Origin: a virus
UHGV virus genome: UHGV-0382853
DNA: 40,325 nt
Strand: one strand, 5' to 3'
In this document: positions 65 through 39,612 of the stretch, in pieces
Position numbering within the stretch: the first letter of the stretch is position 1
How the letters are laid out: every line of letters begins with the position of its first letter
The notes under the pieces: generated by a model
Database searches by the model: none
Told to the model about the DNA's origin: nothing
The model's input: only the letters and a program-made list of their open reading frames with translations
Translations under genes and position numbers: made by a program

Positions 65-2539
65 TTATTGCGGAGTGACATCCTGAGGTCGCCACCAGTA
101 TGTCTGGTTAAACTCTTTCTTCGAACGTTGCTCCATTTTACGCAAATAGCCTGGTGAAAAATACTCCTGCATCTGGTTAAAGATCATGTGATCGAGAGCC
201 GCCTTCAAGTACCAGAGATTCGCACCAGGCATCAAACCTTTCCCCAGCTTCACCAGATCACCACCAGTCTGCTCACTCTTCCCTTCCACAGCATTTAACG
301 GTATGCCCTGAGCAATCTTCACTACGTCATCAACTAGACCAGCTACCGGGCCAAGCATCGACGCCAGCGCGCCGCTTCCGTACCTAGTGTGATCTGACAA
401 TAAAAAGTCACCGTAAAGGCCAAGACCACCACCTTTCAGTAGAGCACCAAGCCAGAATTTTGCGGCATCTTCTCCTGTCATCTCTCGAGGATTACGACCA
501 GACGCAAGGTCGTTAAGTTGTTGCGACAAAGCGCCAAGAATGGTCGTACTGGCAATAAACGTCGCAATATATGCCGCACGCCCACCAGCAGACGGCATAC
601 CCATAGCGCGTGACCAGTGACGCATAACAACCGAGATAGGGAACGATTTAAACAGGAAAACACTTCTCGTTAATTCACCTTTCCATGTTCCACGCTGAAT
701 ACCAGAACCGGTTATCAGTTGCTCACGTGCTCCCGGTGTAATAACAGCCATATCAACTTCTTCAGTTACGGCACCGAGCAGTTTACGCATTGCCTCAAAT
801 TTCACGCGTTCAGGCTCACCAAGATGTTTAACTGCTGAATCAGGGATACGCATAATGCTTTCCGGTGTCAGCATCGTATTATTACCGTTCCCCCAGTCCT
901 CCTGTTGCGCCAACTTCCATACGCTCCAGTCTGTGTCAGTAATCCCTTTGCTTTTCAGGATACGAAAATCAGAGTCATCGAGGCGACGAAGGTCTGGTGT
1001 CCGTGACACTACTTCTCCCAGGCTTCCCATCATGGTTACGCCATAGGCGCGCTTGTGCGCATCTGACCATGCTGTAAGCCCACTGGCACGCATTACCGCC
1101 GTTGCAGCCCAACGAGACACAGACGGCCCCATATTATCCATCGCCCAGCGGTTAACGCTGCCAAGTAGAGATTCCATCGCCAGACCAGCGCGGCGCGCCC
1201 GCGCAAGTTCTGTACGGTTCGTTGGGTCCATAGCTTCAAGCTGGTTGCGGAATAACTGGTTCATTGGAAGGTTGGTAACCTTCGCAGACAGATACATGGT
1301 TCCAAGATCAGAGAACGATGACAGCAACGCGGATCCGAGTCTGCTGGCAACCAGCCAGTTGCGGATATTGTCAGACCATCGCGCGATGTGCGGATTCGCT
1401 ACAGGCTGTGTCTTTCCGGAAATAAAGTTGTACAGATTCTCTGTGTTGTTCGCCAGCCGCTCGACTTTACCGGTTTTACTCGGGTTAGCTGTTGCCGTTT
1501 CTGCCTTCACCTGATCAAGAAGAGAGCGGAAAACATGATCGGGGTTTGGACCATATGTTTCCACCAGTGCAATATCTTTACTGATACCTTCCAGGTGACC
1601 GACCATGATTTCCCATAGAGAGCGATCGCCATAAAGTTGCTGATATTGCAGATAGGAATCTGCATCTTTGAAATGTATCTGTCGTGATGCATTACCACGG
1701 TTAGCACGTGCGCCGGAAATTCGCATTCCGGTATCAGTAAGCTTATTCAGCCCACCAGTAGCGATCGTGTTATAAGCCTCTCCAAGAAATGCAGACAACT
1801 CGGCATCGTTCATCAGTTGTCCATCGGCTCGGGTATAATATTTGCGATCCAGCTTACCTATAACATCGCTAACCCATTTATCTTTTGATACCGCCCCAAC
1901 CTTTTCCATAGAATGATGTTGAGGGATCCCCCAGTTTTCGAGATAGCCAATGTCCCCACCAGCATCATTAAACCGGCGGCGCAGTAGCTCTGTCACTTCT
2001 CTCCACGCCTTAGCACCTTTTCTTGCTTTAGCATTGCCAGTATTTTGCCCCAGCATTTCATATACCAGGTCACGTACGCCCGCTTCATCTTCAAACAGAC
2101 CAAAAAAGCGAGGATCAACTGCTTCGAATGCCTCCTGCAATTGACTCAATGCATAATCACGGGTGGCTTTTGTTCTGGATTCAACAGAGAGGAAATTCGA
2201 TTTACCGTCTGCATTAAAAGCAATAGTACGGTTAAGAGCGCCAAGTTTCCCATCAGCCCCTTGATAGCTATTGATAAATTTATCCAATCTCTGACGTGCG
2301 GCTATAGTGAGGGCCACACGACGTTTCTTTAATGCCGCTTCTCGCTGTAATTCTTCAGATGCCAATTGTGCTGCACGATACAGCCGCTCTGATTCGGAAA
2401 GTTGTCGCCACGACATCGGGTCATCACGAGCAATGGAGCGCATATTTCGATAAATGCGGTCTTCAATGTTCTGTATTTCTCGCGCCGTTAACGTGCGCTG
2501 CGCCGCCTGCTGGACCGCTTGTATACATTCCTGTCTCAT
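65..2539 (-). CDS. large internal virion / ejection protein (T7 gp16-like position), last gene of structural operon
   Basis: 824-aa ORF, ATG with GAGAGG SD; follows the gp14/gp15-like genes in T7-like order; no specific domain recognised. Confidence 0.5.
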   Translation of the reverse strand: MRQECIQAVQQAAQRTLTAREIQNIEDRIYRNMRSIARDDPMSWRQLSESERLYRAAQLASEELQREAALKKRRVALTIAARQRLDKFINSYQGADGKLGALNRTIAFNADGKSNFLSVESRTKATRDYALSQLQEAFEAVDPRFFGLFEDEAGVRDLVYEMLGQNTGNAKARKGAKAWREVTELLRRRFNDAGGDIGYLENWGIPQHHSMEKVGAVSKDKWVSDVIGKLDRKYYTRADGQLMNDAELSAFLGEAYNTIATGGLNKLTDTGMRISGARANRGNASRQIHFKDADSYLQYQQLYGDRSLWEIMVGHLEGISKDIALVETYGPNPDHVFRSLLDQVKAETATANPSKTGKVERLANNTENLYNFISGKTQPVANPHIARWSDNIRNWLVASRLGSALLSSFSDLGTMYLSAKVTNLPMNQLFRNQLEAMDPTNRTELARARRAGLAMESLLGSVNRWAMDNMGPSVSRWAATAVMRASGLTAWSDAHKRAYGVTMMGSLGEVVSRTPDLRRLDDSDFRILKSKGITDTDWSVWKLAQQEDWGNGNNTMLTPESIMRIPDSAVKHLGEPERVKFEAMRKLLGAVTEEVDMAVITPGAREQLITGSGIQRGTWKGELTRSVFLFKSFPISVVMRHWSRAMGMPSAGGRAAYIATFIASTTILGALSQQLNDLASGRNPREMTGEDAAKFWLGALLKGGGLGLYGDFLLSDHTRYGSGALASMLGPVAGLVDDVVKIAQGIPLNAVEGKSEQTGGDLVKLGKGLMPGANLWYLKAALDHMIFNQMQEYFSPGYLRKMEQRSKKEFNQTYWWRPQDVTPQ

Positions 2540-2544
2540 TTAAT

Positions 2545-4347
2545 TTAACCTCTCAAGAAACACGCCACAGCAACATCAAACAGGCTGGAATCCTGTATTG
2601 CCTGCTCACTTTCCCTGTTCGCTTCATCCAGTACTTCACGCGCACTGCGCGATTGTGGATTACCATCATCATCCAGCACGGTGATTATCATGTCAGGTGA
2701 TTCAAGCAGCGAGTCTTCAGCTATACGCAGATCAATATCTCCTGCCGGATCTGCCATCATTTTTTGTTCTGTCTGTTGCAATATCTTACCGGGCTCAAAA
2801 GGAGCTACTTCTTCTGGCGTCCTGACCTCTGCTGTTTTATAGAATGAAACAGCCTGAGCATTAAGTTCACTTTCTGCCTGCTGTCGTCGTGCCAGTTCTG
2901 CTCGAGCTTCAAAAAACTGACCTCCAGGCTCGTGCGGCGCCAACGCGTTACGAGAAAATTCCAGGCGTTCTTGTGCCTGCCGGATTCGTTGGTCAATATC
3001 GCGAAGTCTGGCCTGTTTATCTGATCGAGCACGAGATAAAGCCTTACCGCTACCGGTTGGCTCTTCTGCAAGAATTTGTGCGCGCTGTTCAGTGAGATTT
3101 TCAATAATTCGTTGGCTATTAGCGATTTCAGACTGGTAAACCTTTCTATCGCCACGCGACAAAAGCTGCGCGGCCTGTTCTTCAAGCAACCGATTTTCTA
3201 TAGCGCGCGCCGTTACTCCATCATCTACAGATGACAGAGCCTCATTAACTGCCTGAGACAGCAGACTCTTGCGACCAGGAATTTCACTGAAAGATGCAGA
3301 CTCAACAATGCTGGCAACGTCTACAGGTCTCCCCTGGCTAACATCAGACATGGCTTTTCGCAGAGCCTGAATGTGCGAATTACGCGAAAGCACGTTGATC
3401 GGAACGCCGGGAGCAATATCAATTTCAGCATGATGAGCGGCATTCGCCGCCAGTGCAGCATCAATATCAACTGGTGAAAAATTTGGTGCGCTTGTAGACT
3501 CGCCGCGAGAGTTAATAAATCTGCCGACACCACCAAACGCCACCCCAAGAACAGCATCAATAGCAATTGCCTGTCGATCCAACACATCATACTGGTTAGC
3601 CATTTCGCTATAGCCACCATCACGAAGCGTTTTTGCAGTAAGCCCACGCTGTGCCATACCGAACGCAATATTTGTACCTGCGGCATAGGCAATATCTGGC
3701 GTTGCACGTACTGCTGTTGCTGCGGCGCGTCGCACTGAACTCTCACCCGTCCGCGCAAGCTGAGCCGCCACACCTTCCGCCAGCGCACCACCAGCACGTA
3801 ACCCGAGGCTCATAGGGATCAGTGTTCCGGCACCAGCAGTAATACCCTGCACTAATCCCGCTTCCTGCGCCGTCCTGAAATCAACACCCTGTGCTGTCAG
3901 CCGTTCAAACTCAGAAAAACCCTGTAGCGAAGTTACCGCCGCAGCACCTCCGACCGGACCACCGAGCGTTGTACCGATAACAGCCTGCCCGCCCATATCG
4001 AACAACCCATAAAGAACCTGCCCGGCGGTTCCGGTTGTCGCGGCATCAGGCGTCAGCCGCTTAACCTGCTGCTCTGCTAGTTTTCTCTGCTCGGCAATGT
4101 ATGAAACTGAAGTGTCATTGAGCGAGGTGTTTTCGTTAACAAACTGAGCAATCGGGGATACGATTTTATCCATCCCTGCCCAGAGCAACTGATCTGGCTT
4201 TGCCACCAGCCCGGAGTACAAACCAGACAATGCCGCTCCTACAGCATTGTCGAAAAAACCAACATCGCTGTTAAAGCCAGCTGGATTTGATGCTGCTTCG
4301 TCAAGCTGCTGATTCTGGTTTACTGGATTAAGGCCAAAGTAACTCAT
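2545..4347 (-). CDS. internal virion protein (ejectosome component)
   Basis: 600-aa ORF; its start overlaps the upstream stop (ATGA); Ala/Gly-rich; position in virion module. Confidence 0.5.
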   Translation of the reverse strand: MSYFGLNPVNQNQQLDEAASNPAGFNSDVGFFDNAVGAALSGLYSGLVAKPDQLLWAGMDKIVSPIAQFVNENTSLNDTSVSYIAEQRKLAEQQVKRLTPDAATTGTAGQVLYGLFDMGGQAVIGTTLGGPVGGAAAVTSLQGFSEFERLTAQGVDFRTAQEAGLVQGITAGAGTLIPMSLGLRAGGALAEGVAAQLARTGESSVRRAAATAVRATPDIAYAAGTNIAFGMAQRGLTAKTLRDGGYSEMANQYDVLDRQAIAIDAVLGVAFGGVGRFINSRGESTSAPNFSPVDIDAALAANAAHHAEIDIAPGVPINVLSRNSHIQALRKAMSDVSQGRPVDVASIVESASFSEIPGRKSLLSQAVNEALSSVDDGVTARAIENRLLEEQAAQLLSRGDRKVYQSEIANSQRIIENLTEQRAQILAEEPTGSGKALSRARSDKQARLRDIDQRIRQAQERLEFSRNALAPHEPGGQFFEARAELARRQQAESELNAQAVSFYKTAEVRTPEEVAPFEPGKILQQTEQKMMADPAGDIDLRIAEDSLLESPDMIITVLDDDGNPQSRSAREVLDEANRESEQAIQDSSLFDVAVACFLRG

Positions 4348-25475: not shown

Positions 25476-26060
25476 ATGAAAAGTATCCAGGACGTCCGCA
25501 GGCAAAATCTCAACGACTTGATCGACCGTGAATTCAATGGTGTTCAGACGCGGATGGCTGAAAAACTTGGAACTCAGGCAAATCTGGTAAACCGCTGGGC
25601 TCTTGGCAAGAAGGTTATCGGCGACCAGGTTGCGCGAAAAATTGAAGCTGCCGCCAATAAACCCCGTAACTGGCTTGATATCGATCGCTCGCTTTCTCAG
25701 GAAGGTTTTCAGCCTGTCGGACCAAGCGACATTGGTCAACTGGCGGCTCACAACCTGAAACGCTGGATGAGCGAAAGCCGCGACCTTTCAACGCAGGGAA
25801 AACTTCACCGCGCATCCGGCGTCGCCCAGGTAACAATCAGTCGCCTGTTAAACAATGAGGTCAGCGTTTCCATTTCCACCCTGGAGAATGTTGCATCCGC
25901 ATTCGGGCGTCACGGCTATGAATTACTGATTCACCCGCACGACCCTGCGACCATCAACTATGACCGCTCGCGCTACGCATTGTTACCCGAAACCGAGAAA
26001 GCAAAGATCGAAAGTTACATTGAATTTGTCATCAACCAGAACGAAAAAAACAAACAATAA
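25476..26060 (+). CDS. phage repressor, tandem-HTH type with no recognisable peptidase (autocleavage) domain
   Basis: 194 aa; two HTH-like segments (QTRMAEKLGTQANLVNRWALGKK and LHRASGVAQVTISRLLNNEVS); no S24-like Ser/Lys motifs seen; divergent from cro-like gene. Confidence 0.6.
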   Translation: MKSIQDVRRQNLNDLIDREFNGVQTRMAEKLGTQANLVNRWALGKKVIGDQVARKIEAAANKPRNWLDIDRSLSQEGFQPVGPSDIGQLAAHNLKRWMSESRDLSTQGKLHRASGVAQVTISRLLNNEVSVSISTLENVASAFGRHGYELLIHPHDPATINYDRSRYALLPETEKAKIESYIEFVINQNEKNKQ

Positions 26061-26081
26061 AATCATACTCTTCAGTAAGTA

Positions 26082-26104
26082 AGCCGCCTTCTGGCGGCTT
26101 TTTT
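26082..26104 (+). terminator. rho-independent terminator after the repressor gene
   Basis: agccgcc-ttct-ggcggct followed by tttttt. Confidence 0.7.
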
Positions 26105-26117
26105 ATTGCCTATTTGA

Positions 26118-26132
26118 TTACCTAACGGGTAA
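26118..26132. promoter_or_regulatory. operator-like palindrome at early-left promoter
   Basis: ttacctaacgggtaa; TTGACA at 26152-26157. Confidence 0.5.
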
Positions 26133-26179
26133 TTTTTTTAACTCATATCTATTGACATCAAACCAGATACGCATAATTA

Positions 26180-26194
26180 TTACCTCAACGGTAA
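26180..26194. promoter_or_regulatory. operator-like palindrome at early-left promoter
   Basis: ttacctcaacggtaa, about 20 bp upstream of the first early-left ORF. Confidence 0.5.
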
Positions 26195-26368: not shown

Positions 26369-26668
26369 ATGAACGTTAATCAGCAGAAAAATCTTCAAAA
26401 AATCATGCTGGCATTCGACAAGGACTACCGCCTGTCAGAACAGCTATATGACCGACAAGTTGAACTGATTGAGAGTATCCGGCTTCATCAACTGGCATCA
26501 ACTTTCGACGTTGTAACAGTTAAAGGCGTTCGCCAGGAAGTACTGGAGGCCGCTAAAGACAGTCCAGAGTTCGAAGAACTGATGGATTCCTACCGGCGCG
26601 AGGCAATGGCAATTATCGCCCGCTGGGATCTGGCTGATCAGCTTGATGGGCAGAGGGACGCGGCATGA
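26369..26668 (+). CDS. hypothetical early protein
   Basis: Start moved to ATG 26369 (MNVNQQ...) with GGGAGGG SD. Confidence 0.45.
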   Translation: MNVNQQKNLQKIMLAFDKDYRLSEQLYDRQVELIESIRLHQLASTFDVVTVKGVRQEVLEAAKDSPEFEELMDSYRREAMAIIARWDLADQLDGQRDAA

Positions 26669-26871
26669 AACCAACACTCCTCTCATTGCTGCGAGGTGGA
26701 AAACACAGCATCCGAGATATGGCAAAGATTCTTGGTATCTCAAGATCGAAGGTTTCTTGGTTCATCGCTGAGCTTGAACGTCGCAAATGGGTAGAGGTAA
26801 CCAGGAGCGCAATATATTTCCACGATGGAACCAGATCCAACAAGCAGAACGAATACAAGGTTAAGTTATGA
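26665..26871 (+). CDS. small HTH/winged-helix protein
   Basis: 68 aa; segment SIRDMAKILGISRSKVSWFIAELERRKW resembles an HTH; ATGA-coupled on both sides. Confidence 0.45.
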   Translation: MKPTLLSLLRGGKHSIRDMAKILGISRSKVSWFIAELERRKWVEVTRSAIYFHDGTRSNKQNEYKVKL

Positions 26872-27689
26872 ATACTGGCATCTATTTCGACATCAGCAAT
26901 GAGGACTACCACGCCGGTGACGGCGTGAGTAAGTCGCAACTAGACATGGTTGCCAAGAATCCGGCGCTTCTTAAATGGGTTCAGGCAGCACCAGAAGACG
27001 AAGAGAAAAAGTCTGCACTGGATATGGGAACCGCATTGCACTGTCTGCTTCTGGAGCCTGGAGAGTTCGACAAACGCTTCATTGTTTCACCGAAATTCGA
27101 TCGTCGGACAAAACAAGGTAAAGCTGACGAAGAAGCATTTCTTCGTGATGTGGCGGATATGGGTATTACGGTACTTGATGTCGAGCAGTGGCGAAAACTG
27201 GAGCTGATGCGTGATAGCGCAATGGCTCACCCGGCTGCACGCTGGATGCTGGAAGCACCTGGTTACTGCGAAGCATCAATGTACTGGAACGATGAAGAGA
27301 CTGGTGAGTTGTGCCGCATTCGTCCAGACAAATGGCTGAACGAGCACAACGTGATCGTCGACGTGAAAAAGGTTGCAGATATGGATCGTTTTGCACGCCA
27401 CATCGAGGAATTCCGCTACCACGTGCAGGACGCAATGTACCGCGAAGGAGCAATGAGGGTTACTGGTCAGTCGCATGGTTTTTTCTTTCTTGCCGTGAGC
27501 GAAAGCATTGATTGTGGTCGGTATCCGGTACGCGTGTTCGAGCTGGATGCGCCGGATGTCGATGCCGGGCACGCTCTGTTCCGCCGGGATCTGAATACCT
27601 ATCACGAATGCCGCATCAACGATGAATGGGGCGGAGTGGAAATTATTAAACGCCCTGACTGGGCACGTAAACAGGATATGTACGTATGA
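26868..27689 (+). CDS. PD-(D/E)XK exonuclease (RecE/exonuclease VIII-like)
   Basis: 273 aa; N-terminal GIYFDISNEDYHAGDGVSKSQL pattern typical of this prophage exonuclease family; directly upstream of the annealing protein. Confidence 0.6.
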   Translation: MNTGIYFDISNEDYHAGDGVSKSQLDMVAKNPALLKWVQAAPEDEEKKSALDMGTALHCLLLEPGEFDKRFIVSPKFDRRTKQGKADEEAFLRDVADMGITVLDVEQWRKLELMRDSAMAHPAARWMLEAPGYCEASMYWNDEETGELCRIRPDKWLNEHNVIVDVKKVADMDRFARHIEEFRYHVQDAMYREGAMRVTGQSHGFFFLAVSESIDCGRYPVRVFELDAPDVDAGHALFRRDLNTYHECRINDEWGGVEIIKRPDWARKQDMYV

Positions 27690-28567
27690 GCAATGATATC
27701 GCAATCACATCACAACCAGGCGCAACTGTAGGCACTGCTGCGGCAATCTTCAGCCCCGAGGGCATGAATCAACTGGTGCGTTTCGCGGAGTTGATGTCAC
27801 AAAGCAAAGCGACTGTACCGAGACATCTTGAAGGCAAACCTGCCGATTGCCTGGCGGTGACCATGCAGGCGGCACAGTGGGGAATGAACCCTTTCGCCGT
27901 GGCGCAGAAAACGCATGTGGTAAACGGAACGTTAGGCTACGAAGCACAGTTGGTAAACGCGGTCGTATCCTCTTCCAGCCTGCTGGCGACACGCCTGAAT
28001 TATCGCTGGAGCGGTGACTGGTCGAATGTTAACGGCAAAACAGATAAATCACCGAATCTGACGGTAACTGTGTCAGCAGTTCTTAAAGGAGAAGCAGAAC
28101 CCCGTGAGCTTACCATCAGTATGGCGCAAGCCGGAGTGCGTAACTCTCCATTGTGGGAACAGGATCCGCGCCAGCAGCTTGCCTATCTTTGCACGAAACG
28201 ATGGGCTCGCCTGCACGCTCCTGATGTACTTCTCGGTGTTTACACCCCTGACGAATTACAGGAAACGGCACCGCGCGTTGAGCGAGACATTACTCCGCAA
28301 ACGACTACTGCTGCGGGAATGAACAGTCTGATCAACGCTAAACCAGTGAAAAAGCCTGATGAGCAAACGCGTAAAGCGGATAGCCGTGATCCAGAAGAAA
28401 TGCTGATGGCCTTTACCAGCGCAGCGATGAATTACAGCACTGTCTCCGAACTGGATAAGGCTTACAAATACATTGCACAAAAACTTTCAGATGATGACGA
28501 ACTGCTGGCAAAAGCCACCGACGTTTACAGCGTTCGTCGGGAAGAATTAAACGAAACATCTATGTAA
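27686..28567 (+). CDS. single-strand annealing protein (Red-beta/RecT superfamily)
   Basis: Blocks QWGMNPFAVAQKTHV and PLWEQDP...TAPRVERDITP parallel lambda Bet (YGLNPWTKEIYAF; GPWQSHP...ERQPERDITP). Confidence 0.7.
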   Translation: MSNDIAITSQPGATVGTAAAIFSPEGMNQLVRFAELMSQSKATVPRHLEGKPADCLAVTMQAAQWGMNPFAVAQKTHVVNGTLGYEAQLVNAVVSSSSLLATRLNYRWSGDWSNVNGKTDKSPNLTVTVSAVLKGEAEPRELTISMAQAGVRNSPLWEQDPRQQLAYLCTKRWARLHAPDVLLGVYTPDELQETAPRVERDITPQTTTAAGMNSLINAKPVKKPDEQTRKADSRDPEEMLMAFTSAAMNYSTVSELDKAYKYIAQKLSDDDELLAKATDVYSVRREELNETSM

Positions 28568-28616: not shown

Positions 28617-28865
28617 ATGAAAGGTGCATTAGGTAAGAAGGAACTCCTGGCGGTGGTGCCACTGTCATGGAGCACTATCGACCGTATGGAGCGCGCAGGG
28701 GAATTTCCTAAACGCTGGTATATCACTGACAAACGCTGCGCATGGAACCGTGACGAAGTTGAGCGTTGGCTTGATGAACGTCAGGCAGCAAGCCCGGCAG
28801 AGTTCCAGGGTAAAAAGCCTCCTGTTCAGCAACGTGTATATCGTCCTGTGAGCAACGCTGCATGA
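28617..28865 (+). CDS. AlpA-family DNA-binding protein (candidate excisionase)
   Basis: 82 aa; segment LSWSTIDRMERAGEFPKRWYITDKRCAWNRDEVERWL typical of AlpA/Xis-type HTH; near integrase. Confidence 0.65.
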   Translation: MKGALGKKELLAVVPLSWSTIDRMERAGEFPKRWYITDKRCAWNRDEVERWLDERQAASPAEFQGKKPPVQQRVYRPVSNAA

Positions 28866-28978
28866 GTGCGCTGCTAAGGCACTGGAGCAAATGGTCAGGA
28901 TGGTACTTATTCCTGGCCTCTGTTTCAGCATGGCTTTATCTGCTGGCATTAATTTTCAGAGAGGGTTGGATTAAGTGA
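28862..28978 (+). CDS. small hydrophobic peptide (38 aa)
   Basis: Not in the track; ATG overlaps the AlpA stop (ATGA) and its stop overlaps the next GTG start; Trp-rich, one predicted TM segment. Confidence 0.3.
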   Translation: MSALLRHWSKWSGWYLFLASVSAWLYLLALIFREGWIK

Positions 28979-29274
28979 GAAAGTTAAGCCGACTTGAAAA
29001 ATATCACATGAACAAGGTTTCAATGCGCCGTCCTTCAAAGGTTATCGCCGTTACTCCTGCGGCGATAGAGTTCGAAAAACGCGCGATTGAAAGAGAGAAA
29101 AAAGGGCAGTTCCGCATTGCCGCCCACCTTTGGCTTCAGTGTATGGATGTTGCTTCTGGTGATGTTGAGCGTGCAAGGATCGCGGTTCGCAGGGACCAAT
29201 GTATCACAAAAGGTAACGGCCTTCGCCGTGGCGACTATAGCGGCATAGGATGTTGCGGGGTGGTTTATGACTAA
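28975..29274 (+). CDS. PerC-like transcriptional regulator (tentative)
   Basis: 99-aa ORF; motif ...AAIEFEKRAIEREKKGQFRIAAHLW... reminiscent of PerC/Pch family; start uncertain (GTG 28975 or ATG 29005). Confidence 0.35.
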   Translation: MRKLSRLEKYHMNKVSMRRPSKVIAVTPAAIEFEKRAIEREKKGQFRIAAHLWLQCMDVASGDVERARIAVRRDQCITKGNGLRRGDYSGIGCCGVVYD

Positions 29275-29917
29275 GAAATACACGCTAATCTATGCAGATC
29301 CACCATGGGTATACCGGGACAAAGCCGCAGATGGTAATCGCGGTGCCGGTTTTAAATATCCAGTTATGAGTGTGCTGGATATCTGCCGCCTTCCTGTGTG
29401 GGATTTGACCGCTGAAAACTGTCTGTTGGCCATGTGGTGGGTGCCAACACAACCACTCGAAGCACTAAAAGTTGTTGAAGCCTGGGGATTTCGTCTGATG
29501 ACCATGAAGGGCTTCACGTGGATAAAATGTGGTAGTCGACAACCAGATAAACTGGTTATGGGTATGGGACACATGACTCGCGCCAATAGTGAAGATTGCC
29601 TGTTTGCAGTAAAGGGAAAACTACCTACGCGCATTAATGCAGGGATCGTTCAGTCATTTACCGCACCGCGGCTTGAGCATTCAAGAAAACCAGATATTGT
29701 TCGTGAAAAACTTGTGCAATTGTTAGGCGATGTTTCTCGCATTGAACTATTCGCCCGCCAGACGTCTCATGGCTTCGATGTTTGGGGTAATCAGTGCGAA
29801 GACCCGGCAGTGCAACTACACCCTGGATACGCGTTGGATATTGCCGGATTAACAAATGCATTCAGCAATGCTCCGCTGTCACCAACAGACAACCAGGGGC
29901 GGGAGCGTGCAGCATGA
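29267..29917 (+). CDS. MT-A70-family DNA N6-adenine methyltransferase
   Basis: 216 aa; N-terminal LIYADPPW catalytic motif; no adjacent restriction gene. Confidence 0.75.
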   Translation: MTKKYTLIYADPPWVYRDKAADGNRGAGFKYPVMSVLDICRLPVWDLTAENCLLAMWWVPTQPLEALKVVEAWGFRLMTMKGFTWIKCGSRQPDKLVMGMGHMTRANSEDCLFAVKGKLPTRINAGIVQSFTAPRLEHSRKPDIVREKLVQLLGDVSRIELFARQTSHGFDVWGNQCEDPAVQLHPGYALDIAGLTNAFSNAPLSPTDNQGRERAA

Positions 29918-30108
29918 ACAGGGCATCACCAGCAGATTTAAGGAAATGCCTTGAAACTGCAAACATGCTTGCACACAGCGGGATCAGGTTTGTTCCAATT
30001 CCCGCTGTCACTGATGCTGAATTTGCAACGCTGTCAGCAATATTCGCAGACAAAATTGAATCACTGGCAGCAGAAGCCGAGATGGAAGAAAATCAGCAGA
30101 ACTATTAA
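29914..30108 (+). CDS. hypothetical protein
   Basis: 64 aa from ATG 29914 (ATGA overlap with methylase stop, GGGAG SD); track start at 29794 discarded. Confidence 0.4.
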   Translation: MNRASPADLRKCLETANMLAHSGIRFVPIPAVTDAEFATLSAIFADKIESLAAEAEMEENQQNY

Positions 30109-30114
30109 ACGTTA

Positions 30115-31362
30115 TTATCCCGCCATCCACTTCTCAAACTTCGACGGGGAGAACGGAATCAGATCCGTATGCTCCCCGTCAATCCAGGAATCAATCATAT
30201 CGGCCCACTGCTGCAACATGTAGGCGCGCTGTCTGGCGTATTCCGCTTTGTTATATACGGCGCGCACACCTTTCTGCTCATGTGCCAGAGCCTTTTCAAT
30301 CCAGTCTGAAGGATAACCAGCCTCATGCAACAACGTACTTGCTGTACGGCGCATATCGTGTACGGTGAAGCCCTGAATATGCTCACCATCTTCATTTATT
30401 ATTTTCACCGTTCTGTCGATCAGAGAGTTCAGCGCGGCATTAGATAATGGCTTCCGGAAATTGTAACGACCAGGAACCAGATATTCACTTCCACCAGCGC
30501 ACATCTGCAACCCGACCAATATATCCTGAGCCTGTTTAGGCAGGTAAATAACGTGCGCCCGGCTTCCCTTCATGCGGTCTGAAGGAATTGTCCATGTCCA
30601 TTTTTTAAAATCTATTTCATCCCACGTTGCGTTGGTGAATTCGCCTTTACGAACCATAGTGATAAGCACCAGCTTTAAAGCCATTTTCATAGTGCCCATA
30701 GCACCAATGGCATCCAGCGTGCGGAAGAACAGGCCAATTTCTTCTGGTGTCAGTGTTCGCTCTCGTGGTTTAAATATGGCGATAGACGAAGGTTTAATGT
30801 CAGCCGCAGGATTAAACAAACCATGACCACGGTCATTGGCGTGACGGTATACGCTGCTGATGATCTCCCTGGCCTGTACTGCTGTTGCCCGACCACCGCG
30901 TTCGACAATCCGGTCACACAAATCACGAACCATCGATGTGGTAATTTCAGCCATCATTTTGTTGCCAAGAACCGGAAGTATGTCACGGTCGATCACCGCC
31001 TGCTTCATTGCGCGGGTACTGTCAGCCAGGATGACGTGTTTCATATAACTGTCGGTATGTACCGCAAACGTCTCAGCACCACGAATCTTTTTGATACCGT
31101 CACGTTTAGCCGCAGCCGGTGACTGGCCTGCTTTAAGCAGCTTCTTTGCAGCAATCAGTTCTTCCCGCGCTTCTGCCAGGCTGATACCGTCACGCCCATA
31201 CTGCCCGATTACCAGTGTTTCGCGGCGACCGTTGATACGGTAGTCATAGCGAAACGAGACCGTGCCTGACGTAAGCACAGCTACATACAGCCCGTCACGA
31301 TCGGAGACCTTGTACAGTTTGTCCTGCGGCTTGAGGTTTTTTAATTTTGTATCGGTAAGCAC
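30115..31362 (-). CDS. int: tyrosine integrase (P4-type)
   Basis: 415 aa; N-terminal MLTDTKLKNLKP...DGLYVAV... (DUF4102-like arm-binding domain) and C-terminal HDMRRTASTLLHEAGY...YNKAEYARQ catalytic region. Confidence 0.9.
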   Translation of the reverse strand: MLTDTKLKNLKPQDKLYKVSDRDGLYVAVLTSGTVSFRYDYRINGRRETLVIGQYGRDGISLAEAREELIAAKKLLKAGQSPAAAKRDGIKKIRGAETFAVHTDSYMKHVILADSTRAMKQAVIDRDILPVLGNKMMAEITTSMVRDLCDRIVERGGRATAVQAREIISSVYRHANDRGHGLFNPAADIKPSSIAIFKPRERTLTPEEIGLFFRTLDAIGAMGTMKMALKLVLITMVRKGEFTNATWDEIDFKKWTWTIPSDRMKGSRAHVIYLPKQAQDILVGLQMCAGGSEYLVPGRYNFRKPLSNAALNSLIDRTVKIINEDGEHIQGFTVHDMRRTASTLLHEAGYPSDWIEKALAHEQKGVRAVYNKAEYARQRAYMLQQWADMIDSWIDGEHTDLIPFSPSKFEKWMAG

Positions 31363-36622: not shown

Positions 36623-36638
36623 GGCCGCAAGAGCGGCC
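36623..36638. terminator. bidirectional terminator hairpin
   Basis: ggccgc-aaga-gcggcc flanked by T-rich sequence on both strands; between convergent genes. Confidence 0.5.
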
Positions 36639-37366
36639 TATCGTTTCGCTTTGTGCTCGTCCCAGCACGTTTTGCACCATGCCATTAAGCCATCCGCATT
36701 TTGATTATTAGGGTAAAAGCTTGTTCGTTTTCTGCGGACATTACAAATTGGGCACCACTTCATATGGCGTGTATTCTTTGGGCCATCGAGACACCTTGCA
36801 CACCACTTAGTCAATCCATCTGGATTTTTTGACGATTTCCTGAATTTTTCATATGGTAGGTTTATTCTGCATCGCAAGCACTGCTTGCTACCACTTGAAA
36901 CTCTGTTAGCTGATTCTTCTTTTGGCGGCGATACAGAAGGTATTCTTGCTGGCTCTGATACTGCCTGAGGTGCTTTTTTAGATGACTGAGACGATATGTC
37001 ATCACCAGGGAATCTTCCATGATATGCCGGACGCATTGACACTCCAGGTGGAAGCTCAGCTGTAAACGGCTTTGGCTGAATCAGTTGCCTCTCTTTTGCT
37101 AACTCCTGCTGTTTATAATATGTCTGGATTACCGCACTATCATAAGCAGGAGGTGCGGAAATATTAGGCGCATTACCTCCAGTTTTTTGAAACTGAGTAG
37201 AGGTGTGTTCTATCACCTGTGTACGATTAATCGTTATCTCCCCATCTTCGGTCTTTATCGTTTTGTTATGATTAACGACCGTACGATCAGAGATCTTAGT
37301 CTTGTTCTGGTTGATAACGTAAATAATCACCGCAACCACACCAACAACTATCCAGAAAACTTCCAT
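36638..37366 (-). CDS. membrane-anchored protein with duplicated C-terminal zinc-ribbon (CxxC-N-CxxC x2)
   Basis: 242 aa; N-terminal TM helix (FWIVVGVVAVIIYVI); C-terminal repeats C.RC...DGL..WC..C; GAGGAAAA SD. Confidence 0.5.
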   Translation of the reverse strand: MEVFWIVVGVVAVIIYVINQNKTKISDRTVVNHNKTIKTEDGEITINRTQVIEHTSTQFQKTGGNAPNISAPPAYDSAVIQTYYKQQELAKERQLIQPKPFTAELPPGVSMRPAYHGRFPGDDISSQSSKKAPQAVSEPARIPSVSPPKEESANRVSSGSKQCLRCRINLPYEKFRKSSKNPDGLTKWCARCLDGPKNTRHMKWCPICNVRRKRTSFYPNNQNADGLMAWCKTCWDEHKAKR

Positions 37367-38536: not shown

Positions 38537-38746
38537 ATGGGATTTTGGTTCGCTCGTACAAAAACGAGGGATAATGCACCCAGCCCTCAGGCAAAAAATG
38601 CAGAAGTTCCGGCGTCAGCGCAGGTTAACAAGCGTGGTGGTGTGTATATCTCATCACAGCAAATTTCTGAGCTTCCTGAGGTTAAGGAGATGCGTCGTCT
38701 CGCTGCTGCAATCGTTAAACAGGATCTTGCCACTGTAAGGAAATAG
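38537..38746 (+). CDS. small hydrophilic protein
   Basis: 69 aa; strong SD GAGGAGG 5 nt upstream; stop overlaps the next gene's GTG start. Confidence 0.45.
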   Translation: MGFWFARTKTRDNAPSPQAKNAEVPASAQVNKRGGVYISSQQISELPEVKEMRRLAAAIVKQDLATVRK

Positions 38747-39612
38747 TGTTGTTAGCTCTTCTAATTATCCCCATTCTGGTTAGTGGTTATATTATGATAA
38801 CCGCTAACCAGTATCATTATTTCCGTTTATACCGACATGAAGGCCAGCTTCTTTATATGAAAGTAGCTGCATTAGGTACATATTGCCTTGTTGCTTCGGT
38901 AATAATTGCCGCATTTATAAAATATAAATATCCTGATTTTCACCTAGTTCACGATATGGTGGAAACTTTTAATGTAACGTCAAAACCAGAAACAGATAGA
39001 ATTTACATGTGGCTGCTTCTTCTCTCAGCCACATCCATTTGCTTCTCTTTGTGTTATGTGTCTGTTGTGTGGGTGAAAGATTTTCTTCTTGGTTGTTTTT
39101 ATAAACGTGATATTTACGAGCAAAAAACAGAGGCAATGAAGGCCAGAGTACTGCGAAAAACTTACTCGCAAGGTTCTTTAGACTTACTATTGCTTGATGC
39201 TATTGAATCGGATCCTAAACGACCAATGCTGATTACTTTATCATCAAACAAAGTGTATGTTGGAATAATAAATGGTTCTGGTGAACCAACGGAAAATCAG
39301 GGTCCGCATCAGCACATATCTTTTGTTCCTTTAATGTCAGGATACAGGAACAAAGACAACTTATCTGTCACATTCACTAATGCTTATCCAGGAGAAATAC
39401 AGGTCAAGCGGACTGCAGCAATAAGAGGAATTAGCAGAAAGAAAGTGCCAGGACTTGAGATCATGGTGTCTATTGACGAAATAAGTTATATATCATGGTT
39501 TGATTTTGAAGTATATAAAGCAACAAATAACAAAGTAGAATCCAGGGGGCACGTTATTCGTGTTACCAAAAATGGAAGAAATATATATCAAAGAAATAGC
39601 AAAAAAGAATAG
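38746..39612 (+). CDS. membrane protein (3 N-terminal TM helices plus about 170-aa soluble domain), AT-rich
   Basis: 288 aa; GTG start coupled to the upstream stop; AT-rich codon usage unlike neighbouring genes; followed by a strong terminator. Confidence 0.5.
   Translation: MLLALLIIPILVSGYIMITANQYHYFRLYRHEGQLLYMKVAALGTYCLVASVIIAAFIKYKYPDFHLVHDMVETFNVTSKPETDRIYMWLLLLSATSICFSLCYVSVVWVKDFLLGCFYKRDIYEQKTEAMKARVLRKTYSQGSLDLLLLDAIESDPKRPMLITLSSNKVYVGIINGSGEPTENQGPHQHISFVPLMSGYRNKDNLSVTFTNAYPGEIQVKRTAAIRGISRKKVPGLEIMVSIDEISYISWFDFEVYKATNNKVESRGHVIRVTKNGRNIYQRNSKKE

What the first reader, a model, noticed from the sequence alone, without database searches (positions are those of the whole stretch)
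29267..29917. Orphan MT-A70 adenine methyltransferase in the early operon next to integrase
The DPPW-motif methyltransferase has no partner restriction gene. Such orphan methylases in phages typically self-protect against host restriction or modulate gene expression.
Basis: established knowledge. Interest (0 to 1): 0.4.

Follow-up and report, generated by a model that had tools for sequence, protein, structure and literature searches.

The report
Orphan MT-A70 adenine methyltransferase, phiV10-type phage
This is a real, intact and already annotated phage gene for a small adenine methyltransferase with no restriction partner; its nearest studied relative in Shiga-toxin phages has been reported both to methylate GATC in DNA and to methylate ribosomal RNA, so its true target is still unsettled.

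Summary
Window 29267-29917 (+) is an intact 216-aa ORF with a full-length MT-A70 match (PF05063, E 3.9e-22) and DPPW at residues 11-14. The window is a phiV10/epsilon15-type temperate phage. The gene is the ortholog of PhiV10p33 (97-99% identical), which is already annotated as an adenine methylase, and it occurs in about 10% of complete E. coli genomes.

It lies in the leftward early gene string: RecE, RecT, AlpA/Xis, PerC-like, methyltransferase, lambda-Orf63-like. The integrase is the next gene but on the opposite strand. I found no restriction gene, so "orphan" stands.

The catalytic core is 83% identical to the Stx-phage enzyme M.EcoPA8orf6770P, which appears to be the enzyme called M.EcoGV. 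That enzyme is reported to methylate GATC in vivo when expressed alone. With an upstream partner, PNB-2, it is reported to prefer 16S rRNA and to raise spontaneous prophage induction. This window has no PNB-2.

A survey of 50 loci shows no conserved neighbour, and some relatives stand alone.

Best reading: an autonomous, probably homodimeric, Dam-like DNA adenine methyltransferase made early in lytic growth. The gene is ordinary and already known. The only open question is its substrate.

The parts
29267..29917 (+). MT-A70 family (beta-class) N6-adenine methyltransferase, 216 aa; ortholog of PhiV10p33.
   Evidence: ORF. PF05063 E 3.9e-22. 97-99% identical to the phiV10 and TL-2011b proteins. 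83% identical over residues 1-187 to M.EcoPA8orf6770P. MT-A70 fold.
29297..29308 (+). Codons for the catalytic motif IV, D11-P-P-W14.
   Evidence: Sequence. P12 and W14 are invariant in the 27-sequence family alignment (W14 also in the 66-sequence one); D11 and P12 are at least 90% conserved.
29744..29794 (+). C-terminal cofactor-binding block: E160-L-F-A-R164 through W173-G-N-Q176. It aligns with the METTL3 and MTA1 SAM-binding segments.
   Evidence: E160, F162, W173 and G174 are invariant. The alignment to MTA1 chain 7f4r shows IELFAR against LEIFAR. The assignment of these residues to SAM binding rests on published METTL3 structures, recalled from memory.
29828..29914 (+). Variable C-terminal tail, residues 188-216. 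It is unrelated to the tail of the Stx-phage enzyme and is predicted to be mostly disordered.
   Evidence: The alignment with the phiPA8 enzyme stops at residue 187. pLDDT is below 50 for 203-216. Constraint is relaxed: 4 synonymous against 9 nonsynonymous variants.
29008..29274 (+). PerC-like small regulator gene. It is 88 aa from the ATG at 29008, or 99 aa from the GTG at 28975. Its stop overlaps the methyltransferase start by 8 nt.
   Evidence: PF06069 E 5.6e-7 and phrog_868 E 5e-61. No similarity to PNB-2.
29914..30108 (+). DUF1382 / lambda Orf63-family gene, 64 aa. Its start overlaps the methyltransferase stop in the sequence ATGA.
   Evidence: PF07131 E 1.3e-30. PDB 8dsb E 6e-13. 48% identical to phiPA8 gp4. 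Homologs occur in lambda, 434 and DE3, which were not among the phage records that matched the methyltransferase.
28617..28865 (+). AlpA-type excisionase/regulator gene in the same gene string.
   Evidence: PF05930 E 3e-5 and phrog_66.
26868..28567 (+). RecE-like exonuclease (26868-27689) and RecT annealing protein (27686-28567), upstream in the same gene string.
   Evidence: PF12684 and PF03837; phrog_412 and phrog_561.
26081..26180 (+). Terminator-like hairpin (26081-26100) after the HTH repressor-like gene, followed by a promoter-like site (26152-26180, TTGACA-17-AATTAT). This is the candidate start of the transcription unit that carries the methyltransferase.
   Evidence: Consensus scan only. 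No other + strand promoter-like or terminator-like site was found between 26200 and 31100.
30115..31362 (-). Tyrosine integrase, convergent with the early-left genes and 6 bp from the DUF1382 stop. It is a neighbour, not part of the operon.
   Evidence: PF13356, PF22022 and PF00589; coordinates.

Best explanation
The gene encodes an autonomous orphan N6-adenine methyltransferase of the MT-A70 (beta-class) family that uses S-adenosylmethionine.

Shown:
- The fold, the DPPW catalytic motif and the conserved C-terminal cofactor block are intact.
- The gene is under purifying selection.
- There is no restriction gene, no second MT-A70 paralog and no PNB-2 homolog in the phage.
- The same catalytic module sits next to many unrelated genes in other phages, and in some elements it stands alone.

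Inferred:
- It is transcribed with recE, recT, xis, the PerC-like gene and the Orf63-like gene from the leftward early promoter, after infection or induction.
- It works as a homodimer, as beta-class enzymes do.
- It methylates the adenine of GATC in double-stranded DNA. This follows from the 83%-identical Stx-phage enzyme M.EcoGV, with which it shares both variable loops.

The likely consequence is that fast-replicating phage DNA stays fully Dam-type methylated when host Dam is limiting. That would protect it from nucleases that cut unmethylated GATC and from MutH or SeqA acting on hemimethylated DNA. It could also shift the lysis-lysogeny balance, since the Stx-phage homolog raises spontaneous induction.
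For: - Family, motif and fold.
- Maintained function: 80 of 80 copies keep an open frame, pN/pS about 0.22.
- Homology to the studied enzyme: 83% identity and 90% similarity over residues 1-187 to M.EcoPA8orf6770P.
- Same loop class as the Stx enzymes: KCGxRQxDKLxMGM together with AGI[VI]QSF.
- Link to M.EcoGV: the O104:H4 Stx phage P13374 carries only two methyltransferases, a PstI-like R-M pair and an MT-A70 that is 207/208 identical to the phiPA8 enzyme. This fits the statement in PMC10810198 that M.EcoGV, which is GATC-specific in vivo when expressed alone, is this enzyme. PMC6602927 table 3 also lists M.EcoGV as GATC.
- Autonomy: the upstream neighbours of 50 loci fall into 34 clusters, and the downstream neighbours of 49 fall into 34. 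Cargo genes are inserted between the PerC-like gene and the methyltransferase in five epsilon15-like prophages. A 77%-identical E. coli relative is a solitary gene with 100-600 nt spacers on both sides.
- No PNB-1, PNB-2 or second MT-A70 in the window.
- The nearest solved relative by sequence is the DNA 6mA enzyme MTA1 (E 6e-13), ahead of the RNA enzyme METTL3 (E 3e-5).
Against: - Purified M.EcoPA8orf6770P showed almost no activity on dam-minus DNA in vitro (PMC10810198, section 18). With PNB-2, the same authors measured more than 13-fold higher SAM consumption on RNA than on DNA.
- I could not read Fang 2012 itself. The GATC assignment and the identity of M.EcoGV reach me second-hand.
- 17% sequence divergence could change specificity.
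- GATC usage in the window is unremarkable: 148 sites, observed/expected 0.76, no clusters. The genome therefore gives no independent support.
- Expression timing rests only on gene order and a consensus promoter scan.
Confidence: 0.5

Rival explanations
1. It is the catalytic subunit of a two-protein RNA methyltransferase. The small protein encoded just upstream (PerC-like here, PNB-2 in Stx phages) binds it and directs it to 16S rRNA or another RNA. This would alter translation and raise prophage induction.
For: - PMC10810198 reports that the 83%-identical enzyme co-purifies 1:1 with the upstream gene product, and that the complex prefers 16S rRNA and 30S subunits.
- The PerC-like gene overlaps the methyltransferase start by 8 nt.
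- PerC-like genes are the commonest upstream neighbour, 8 of 50 loci. Four of these lie outside the epsilon15-type gene order.
- Rare in-frame PerC-methyltransferase fusions exist in raw assemblies.
- Eukaryotic MT-A70 enzymes need partner proteins (PMC7544214).
Against: - The PerC-like protein has no detectable similarity to PNB-2, and the window has no PNB-2.
- Phage PA28 carries the identical methyltransferase behind a different upstream gene.
- Other genes are inserted between the PerC-like gene and the methyltransferase in related prophages.
- Some relatives have no adjacent gene at all.
- The C-terminal tails do not co-vary with a PerC-like neighbour, and the tail evolves almost neutrally.
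- The rRNA claim rests on an indirect SAM-consumption assay, and no modified base was mapped.
- The fusions are 2-3 sequences that a one-base indel would explain.
Confidence: 0.15
2. It is a DNA adenine methyltransferase whose specificity is not GATC, either a different short motif or little sequence preference. In that case it gives broad protection of phage DNA against host Type I, II and III restriction, in the manner of M.EcoGII or Hia5.
For: - At 216 aa it has no separate target-recognition domain.
- The family shows two co-varying loop classes, which suggests that specificity can change.
- In other phages the module sits beside C5-methyltransferase genes and a DndB-like gene (L122, L127 and L093). 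That is the pattern of anti-restriction gene clusters.
- Non-specific prophage adenine methyltransferases exist in E. coli (PMC5778455).
Against: - The window enzyme shares its loop class and 83% identity with the enzyme reported as GATC-specific.
- M.EcoGI and M.EcoGII belong to a different family: 349 aa, DPPY motif (PMC5778455).
- There are no data for any other motif.
Confidence: 0.15
3. It is half of an unrecognised restriction-modification or other defence pair carried by the phage. The nuclease partner would be too divergent for profile searches to detect.
For: - PADLOC files close relatives under Type II methyltransferases.
- Two ORFs in the accessory region have no assigned function, and one has endonuclease-VII-like zinc ribbons (36638-37366 and 38746-39612).
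Against: - Both flanking genes are small and belong to known non-nuclease families.
- The unknown ORFs are 7-10 kb away.
- No neighbour is conserved across 50 loci.
- The gene stands alone in some elements.
Confidence: 0.03
4. The protein no longer methylates anything and acts only by binding SAM or a nucleic acid.
For: The purified homolog alone had near-background activity in vitro (PMC10810198, section 18).
Against: - All catalytic and cofactor motif residues are invariant.
- The gene is under purifying selection.
- Changing DPPW to APPA abolished the phenotype of the homolog (PMC10810198, section 16).
Confidence: 0.04

Closest known systems
PhiV10p33 of Escherichia phage phiV10 (NC_007804) and the equivalent genes of TL-2011b and epsilon15 (epsilon15_p10).
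   Same: It occupies the same position in the same phage type: AlpA, PerC-like, methyltransferase, DUF1382, then a convergent int. Protein identity is 96.8% to phiV10 and 98.6% to TL-2011b. All are annotated as adenine methylase or DNA methyltransferase.
   Different: epsilon15 carries the other loop class, a 192-aa protein with no long tail, an extra 36-aa ORF upstream and no DUF1382 gene. None of these genes has been tested experimentally, as far as the searched literature shows.
M.EcoPA8orf6770P of Stx2a phage phiPA8, which appears to be M.EcoGV of the E. coli O104:H4 Stx phage.
   Same: It is 83% identical over the 187-aa catalytic core, with DPPW and the same variable-loop class. Both are followed by an overlapping DUF1382 gene and lie a few genes from a convergent int in the region between the recombination genes and the integrase.
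   Different: The C-terminal tail is unrelated, and the upstream gene is PerC-like rather than PNB-2. The Stx enzyme has reported activities (GATC in vivo; 16S rRNA with PNB-2; higher spontaneous induction). Nothing has been measured for the phiV10-type enzyme.
Eukaryotic MT-A70 enzymes: Tetrahymena/Oxytricha MTA1 (DNA 6mA at ApT) and human METTL3 (mRNA m6A).
   Same: They share the permuted Rossmann fold, the DPPW motif and the cofactor-binding block. MTA1 is the closer by sequence, E 6e-13. The ApT target of MTA1 is recalled from the literature, not tested here; GATC contains an ApT step.
   Different: The eukaryotic enzymes work as heterodimers with an inactive MT-A70 paralog (MTA9, METTL14) plus DNA- or RNA-binding partners. 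The phage has a single 216-aa copy and no paralog.
Phage and host Dam methyltransferases (E. coli Dam, T4 Dam, P1 Dam, VT2-Sa Dam; Pfam PF02086, alpha-class).
   Same: The likely function is the same: orphan GATC adenine methylation encoded by phages of Dam-positive hosts.
   Different: The protein family and the motif order are different. This protein matched only PF05063. The resemblance would be in function, not ancestry.
M.EcoGI / M.EcoGII, non-specific prophage adenine methyltransferases of E. coli O104:H4.
   Same: They are prophage-borne orphan beta-class adenine methyltransferases that are silent in lysogens (PMC5778455).
   Different: They are 349 aa with a DPPY motif and a central recognition domain, so they are a different family. 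Non-specificity is shown for them, not for this protein.

Membership tests
MT-A70 / Ime4-like methyltransferases (Pfam PF05063) | Profile match above the curated threshold across the whole domain. | tested here: met
   79.4 bits against a cut-off of 23.9, covering profile positions 1-172 of 172.
MT-A70 / Ime4-like methyltransferases (Pfam PF05063) | Catalytic motif IV, DPPW, near the N-terminus and ahead of the cofactor-binding block (beta-class permuted order). | tested here: met
   DPPW at residues 11-14; ELFAR...WGNQ at 160-176. The order matches MTA1 in the printed alignment.
MT-A70 / Ime4-like methyltransferases (Pfam PF05063) | MT-A70 three-dimensional fold. | tested here: met
   The AlphaFold model matches METTL3 (E 2e-13) and MTA1 (rmsd 2.7-3.5 A over about 180 residues).
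MT-A70 / Ime4-like methyltransferases (Pfam PF05063) | SAM-dependent N6-adenine methyl transfer. | not testable with these tools
   Needs an enzyme assay or a methylome. It can only be inferred from the conserved motifs.
M.EcoPA8orf6770P-PNB-2 rRNA methyltransferase holoenzyme (PMC10810198) | Catalytic subunit closely related to M.EcoPA8orf6770P. | tested here: met
   83% identity over residues 1-187.
M.EcoPA8orf6770P-PNB-2 rRNA methyltransferase holoenzyme (PMC10810198) | A PNB-2 specificity subunit encoded immediately upstream. | tested here: not met
   The upstream protein is PerC-like, with no alignment to PNB-2. tblastn finds no PNB-2 anywhere in the window.
M.EcoPA8orf6770P-PNB-2 rRNA methyltransferase holoenzyme (PMC10810198) | The STEC-type C-terminal ~27 residues proposed to bind PNB-2. 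| tested here: not met
   The tails are unrelated beyond residue 187.
Type II restriction-modification system | A cognate restriction endonuclease gene next to the methyltransferase. | tested here: not met
   The neighbours are a PerC-like gene, a DUF1382 gene and int. There was no nuclease hit in the non-phiV10 parts of the window. No neighbour is conserved across 50 loci. A very divergent nuclease cannot be formally excluded.
Dam family (PF02086, alpha-class GATC methyltransferases) | Sequence membership in the D12-class family. | tested here: not met
   Only PF05063 was matched at E <= 0.01.
Dam family (PF02086, alpha-class GATC methyltransferases) | GATC specificity (a functional resemblance only). 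| not testable with these tools
   Reported second-hand for the 83%-identical M.EcoGV (PMC10810198, PMC6602927). GATC statistics for the window are uninformative.

The most novel reading that the evidence does not exclude
The roughly 187-aa MT-A70 core could be a portable catalytic cassette whose substrate is set by whichever small nucleic-acid-binding protein is encoded just upstream: PNB-2 for 16S rRNA in Stx phages, the PerC-like protein for a different RNA or DNA target here. The two co-varying loop classes would add a second layer of specificity switching. In that case phiV10-type phages would use an epitranscriptomic or targeted epigenetic switch to tune induction, not a plain anti-restriction methylase.
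Probability: 0.1. Interest if true: 0.65.

Novelty: already known. Interest (0 to 1): 0.22.

Why it matters
The gene itself is routine. It has been annotated in phiV10 and epsilon15 for years and is carried by about one in ten complete E. coli genomes.

The interesting point is a contradiction in the literature. The near-identical Stx-phage enzyme is listed as a GATC DNA methyltransferase and has also been published as the first prophage rRNA methyltransferase. The phiV10-type gene offers a natural test of that contradiction, because it has the same core and the same loops but no PNB-2.

If the enzyme alone writes GATC methylation, then the rRNA activity depends on the partner protein. If it does not, the database assignment for a very common prophage gene is wrong.

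Either answer bears on how temperate phages of pathogenic E. coli set their spontaneous induction rate, and therefore on toxin release in the Stx relatives.

Tried and rejected
1. GATC statistics. The window has 148 sites, observed/expected 0.76, with no cluster of 4 or more in 150 bp. This gives no signal for or against a GATC enzyme.
2. Search for a restriction partner. Pfam, PADLOC and PHROG scans of the ORFs in window segments that differ from phiV10 found no restriction enzyme.
3. PerC-like protein as a PNB-2 equivalent. There is no sequence similarity.
4. Co-variation of the tail with the neighbouring gene. PerC-associated methyltransferases carry many different tails, and the same tail occurs with other upstream genes. 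I rejected this as evidence for a dedicated interface.
5. DUF1382 as a dedicated subunit. I rejected this because homologs sit in lambda, 434 and DE3, which were not among the phage records that matched the methyltransferase, and it is the lambda Orf63 family.
6. M.EcoGIX and M.EcoGI/GII as the known relative. M.EcoGIX is plasmid-borne, and M.EcoGI/GII are a 349-aa DPPY family.
7. Reading Fang et al. 2012 directly. The paper is not held.
8. Literature on phiV10 or epsilon15 methylation. I found nothing specific to this gene.
9. The first IMG/VR scan returned only copies 97-100% identical. These were useful for the selection test but not for context.
10. I did not use the second structure job on the rare PerC-methyltransferase fusion. 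The tool returns no inter-domain confidence, so the result could not have been interpreted.
Full report
**What is at the coordinates**

Window 29267-29917 on the + strand is an intact ORF of 216 codons that starts MTKKYTLIYADPPWVY. DPPW is encoded at 29297-29308. The protein matches Pfam MT-A70 (PF05063) over the whole 172-position profile, at E 3.9e-22 and 79.4 bits against a cut-off of 23.9. It also matches PHROG phrog_359, 'DNA methyltransferase', at E 1e-119, and a PADLOC Type II methyltransferase model at E 1.6e-78. No NCBIfam model matched.

An AlphaFold model built on 66 homologs has mean pLDDT 79.6 and pTM 0.78. Confidence is low only in two loops (residues 19-29 and 100-104) and in the last 14 residues. 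The model matches the catalytic domains of human METTL3 (E 2e-13) and Tetrahymena MTA1 (rmsd 2.7-3.5 A). By sequence, the nearest solved structure is MTA1, a DNA 6mA enzyme, at E 6e-13. METTL3 scores E 3e-5.

**Where the window comes from**

The window is a phiV10/epsilon15-type temperate podophage (genus Uetakevirus). The 2.8 kb around the gene is 98% identical to phiV10, and most of the window aligns to phiV10. The gene is the ortholog of PhiV10p33. That gene is annotated 'putative adenine methylase' in the GenBank record (DQ126339) and 'DNA methyltransferase' in RefSeq. The same gene is present in 538 of 5426 complete E. coli genomes, where it is annotated 'MT-A70 family methyltransferase'. 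The feature is therefore already known as an annotation.

**Is it a maintained gene?**

In 80 IMG/VR loci that are 97-100% identical, every copy keeps an open reading frame; three use a start two codons downstream. There are 61 alleles, and pN/pS is about 0.22. The core (residues 1-187) has 52 synonymous and 31 nonsynonymous variants. The tail (188-216) has 4 and 9, which is close to neutral. In a 66-sequence family alignment the motif residues are invariant: W14, S139, K141, P142, E160, F162, W173 and G174.

**Gene context**

On the + strand the order is:

| Coordinates | Gene or site |
|---|---|
| 25476-26060 | HTH repressor-like gene |
| 26081-26100 | terminator-like hairpin |
| 26152-26180 | promoter-like site |
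| (small ORFs) | unnamed |
| 26868-27689 | RecE-like exonuclease |
| 27686-28567 | RecT |
| 28617-28865 | AlpA/Xis-like |
| 29008-29274 | PerC-like |
| 29267-29917 | methyltransferase |
| 29914-30108 | 64-aa DUF1382 gene |

The PerC-like stop overlaps the methyltransferase start by 8 nt. The methyltransferase stop overlaps the DUF1382 start in the sequence ATGA.

The integrase (30115-31362) is on the minus strand, convergent, and only 6 bp from the DUF1382 stop. It is a neighbour, not part of the operon.

The DUF1382 protein belongs to the lambda Orf63 family. It hits PDB 8dsb at E 6e-13. Homologs occur in lambda, 434 and DE3, none of which appeared among the phage records that matched the methyltransferase. 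Orf63 is an early pro-lytic protein of the lambda exo-xis region (PMC10869804, PMC5575149). The methyltransferase therefore sits in the phiV10 counterpart of the exo-xis region, whose genes are known to shift the lysis-lysogeny balance (PMC3824215).

**Orphan status**

No restriction gene was found. Both flanking genes belong to small non-nuclease families. The window segments that differ from phiV10 gave no restriction-enzyme match in Pfam, PADLOC or PHROGs. There is no second MT-A70 copy in the window.

**The closest studied relative**

A literature search found Gong, Chakraborty and Koudelka (PMC10810198). They studied an MT-A70 gene, M.EcoPA8orf6770P (gp5), near the int end of Stx2a prophage phiPA8. 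Their findings:
- The intact gene raises spontaneous induction and amoeba killing, and a DPPW-to-APPA mutant does not.
- The purified protein alone is almost inactive on DNA or RNA.
- It co-purifies 1:1 with the product of the upstream gene gp6 (PNB-2), and that complex prefers 16S rRNA and 30S subunits in a SAM-consumption assay.
- The modified base was not mapped.

I fetched phiPA8 (KP682374). The window protein is 83% identical and 90% similar to gp5 over residues 1-187, after which the tails are unrelated.

The same paper and PMC6602927 (table 3) report that M.EcoGV of E. coli O104:H4 is GATC-specific. M.EcoGV is highly similar to gp5, and it methylated GATC in vivo when overproduced without PNB-2. 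I could not open Fang 2012 to check this directly. I did check the O104:H4 Stx phage P13374. It carries only two methyltransferase genes: a PstI-like R-M pair, and an MT-A70 that is 207/208 identical to gp5 with an identical PNB-2 upstream. Essentially one and the same enzyme therefore carries both claims.

**Does this phage have a partner subunit?**

The PerC-like protein shows no similarity to PNB-2. Neither PNB-1 nor PNB-2 is encoded anywhere in the window.

To see whether any neighbour is conserved, I took 49 loci from different species' genomes plus the phage loci, and extracted the ORFs abutting the methyltransferase. Results:
- The 50 upstream neighbours fall into 34 clusters, and the 49 downstream neighbours also fall into 34.
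- Most junctions overlap by 1-8 nt whatever the neighbour is. The overlap seen here is the normal packing of phage early genes, not a sign of a specific partnership.
- PerC-like genes are the largest upstream group (8 of 50).
- PNB-2 occurs only in Stx phages.
- DUF1382 occurs only in the window and in Stx phages.

In epsilon15-type prophages of Salmonella, Citrobacter, Klebsiella, Kluyvera and Superficieibacter the order AlpA, PerC-like, methyltransferase, int is kept. In five of these, unrelated cargo genes are inserted between the PerC-like gene and the methyltransferase. The cargo includes a DUF1317 gene, a DndB-like 355-aa gene, and ORFs of 84, 168 and 203 aa.

Two further observations argue against a fixed partner. 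Phage PA28 has a methyltransferase identical to that of phiPA8 but a different upstream gene. A 77%-identical E. coli relative (P0032) is a solitary gene with 100-600 nt spacers on both sides, in elements of about 40 kb that carry ParB_N genes. Tails differ among PerC-associated enzymes and recur with other neighbours.

Together these results argue that the core enzyme is autonomous, and that PerC-like adjacency here mostly reflects conserved gene order in this phage lineage. Two weak counter-points remain. PerC-like genes abut the methyltransferase in four loci outside that gene order (L105, L108, L109, L115). Two or three raw-assembly proteins are in-frame PerC-methyltransferase fusions, which a single-base indel would explain.

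**Specificity clues within the family**

Two segments co-vary: residues 86-100 and 123-131, which flank and include the low-confidence loop.
- Class I is KCGxRQxDKLxMGM with AGI[VI]QSF. It is found in the window, in the Stx-phage enzymes and in P0032.
- Class II is KTNxxKGNSAIGM with ASICQH. It is found in epsilon15, in Salmonella P0007 and in most other members.

P0007 combines the class II loops with the window-type tail, so recombination occurs inside the gene. Because the window enzyme shares class I with the Stx enzyme, I expect the same target for both.

**Most likely mechanism**

Shown: an intact, conserved, orphan MT-A70 methyltransferase with no PNB-2 and no paralog.

Inferred:
- It is made from the leftward early transcript.
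- It acts as a homodimer. Beta-class enzymes are thought to be active only as dimers (PMC7544214).
- It methylates adenine in GATC of DNA, as the partner-free Stx enzyme is reported to do.

In Dam-positive hosts this would top up methylation of rapidly replicating phage DNA. That would protect it from nucleases that cut unmethylated GATC and from MutH or SeqA acting on hemimethylated DNA. It may also influence induction, as in phiPA8. I put this at about 0.5.

The rival models are:
- a partner-directed RNA methyltransferase, about 0.15;
- a DNA methyltransferase with another or no sequence specificity, about 0.15;
- a hidden R-M pair, about 0.03;
- an inactive protein, about 0.04.

GATC counts in the window (148 sites, observed/expected 0.76, no clusters) do not discriminate between these.

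**Verdict**

Its interpretation is reasonable but generic. The gene is already known and ordinary. Its only real interest is the unresolved DNA-versus-rRNA question for a very common prophage enzyme. This partner-less variant could help settle that question.

Noticed in passing
L004 (phage PA8, KP682374) 2073-3299: The primers published for the 'PNB-2 + methyltransferase' co-expression plasmid in PMC10810198 map to 2073 and 3299. The construct therefore also carried the whole DUF1382/Orf63-like gene gp4. By eye, the other plasmid's reverse primer ends on the last codons of the DUF1627 gene gp3; I did not map it with a tool. A contribution of gp4 to the reported complex or activity was therefore not excluded.
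   Followed up: partly
window 29522-29566 and 29633-29659 (residues 86-100 and 123-131); alignment A2: Two segments of the methyltransferase co-vary as two discrete classes across the family. The window and the Stx phages carry one class; epsilon15 and most others carry the other. Some proteins are chimeric (P0007, P0061), which shows recombination inside the gene. These segments may be the target-recognition elements.
   Followed up: partly
L086, L091, L093, L094, L136 (epsilon15-like prophages), between the PerC-like gene and the methyltransferase: The short junction that is an 8-nt overlap in this window is an insertion hot spot in related prophages. It holds unrelated cargo genes: a DUF1317 gene, a DndB-like 355-aa protein, and ORFs of 84, 168 and 203 aa.
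   Followed up: partly
window 36638-37366 (-): This 242-aa ORF (phrog_6762, unknown function) has repeated zinc-ribbon segments. They weakly match endonuclease VII and a Lar-like restriction-alleviation protein (E 1e-9 to 1e-11 over 40-50 residues). It is a possible anti-restriction or nuclease-related accessory gene near the tail-fibre region.
   Followed up: no
window 30108-30115: The early-left gene string and int converge with only 6 bp between their stop codons, and the scan found no terminator-like hairpin there. Early transcription would run antisense into int. The epsilon15 record annotates RNase III sites around int.
   Followed up: no
window 26672-26883 and 26868-28567: RecE-like and RecT are separate overlapping ORFs here, and a 68-aa ORF (26665-26871) precedes them. 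The phiV10 RefSeq record annotates a single 1761-nt RecE-RecT fusion. The blastn alignment to phiV10 breaks at 26672-26883.
   Followed up: no
P0003 and P0004 (Logan assemblies): These rare proteins of 263 and 297 aa join the PerC-like protein in frame to the methyltransferase. The P0004 junction (…GIGCCGVV-MTKKYT…) looks like a one-base change at the window's overlapping stop and start (my reading); P0003 also lacks part of PerC. They could be sequencing errors or real fusions.
   Followed up: partly
L138-L142 (E. coli contigs of 22-48 kb): A 77%-identical 195-aa MT-A70 gene stands alone after a lysis cassette, upstream of two ParB_N genes. One of these is fused to a weak methyltransferase domain. 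This is a different mobile element from the phiV10 type.
   Followed up: no
whole window: CTAG is strongly under-represented (7 observed, 29 expected), and GGCC is at 0.58 of expectation. GATC is only mildly low, at 0.76.
   Followed up: no
L122 and L127 (genome loci): In some distant relatives the MT-A70 gene lies directly beside large C5-cytosine methyltransferase-like genes, judged by eye from motifs in the translations. This suggests multi-methyltransferase anti-restriction clusters in other phages.
   Followed up: no
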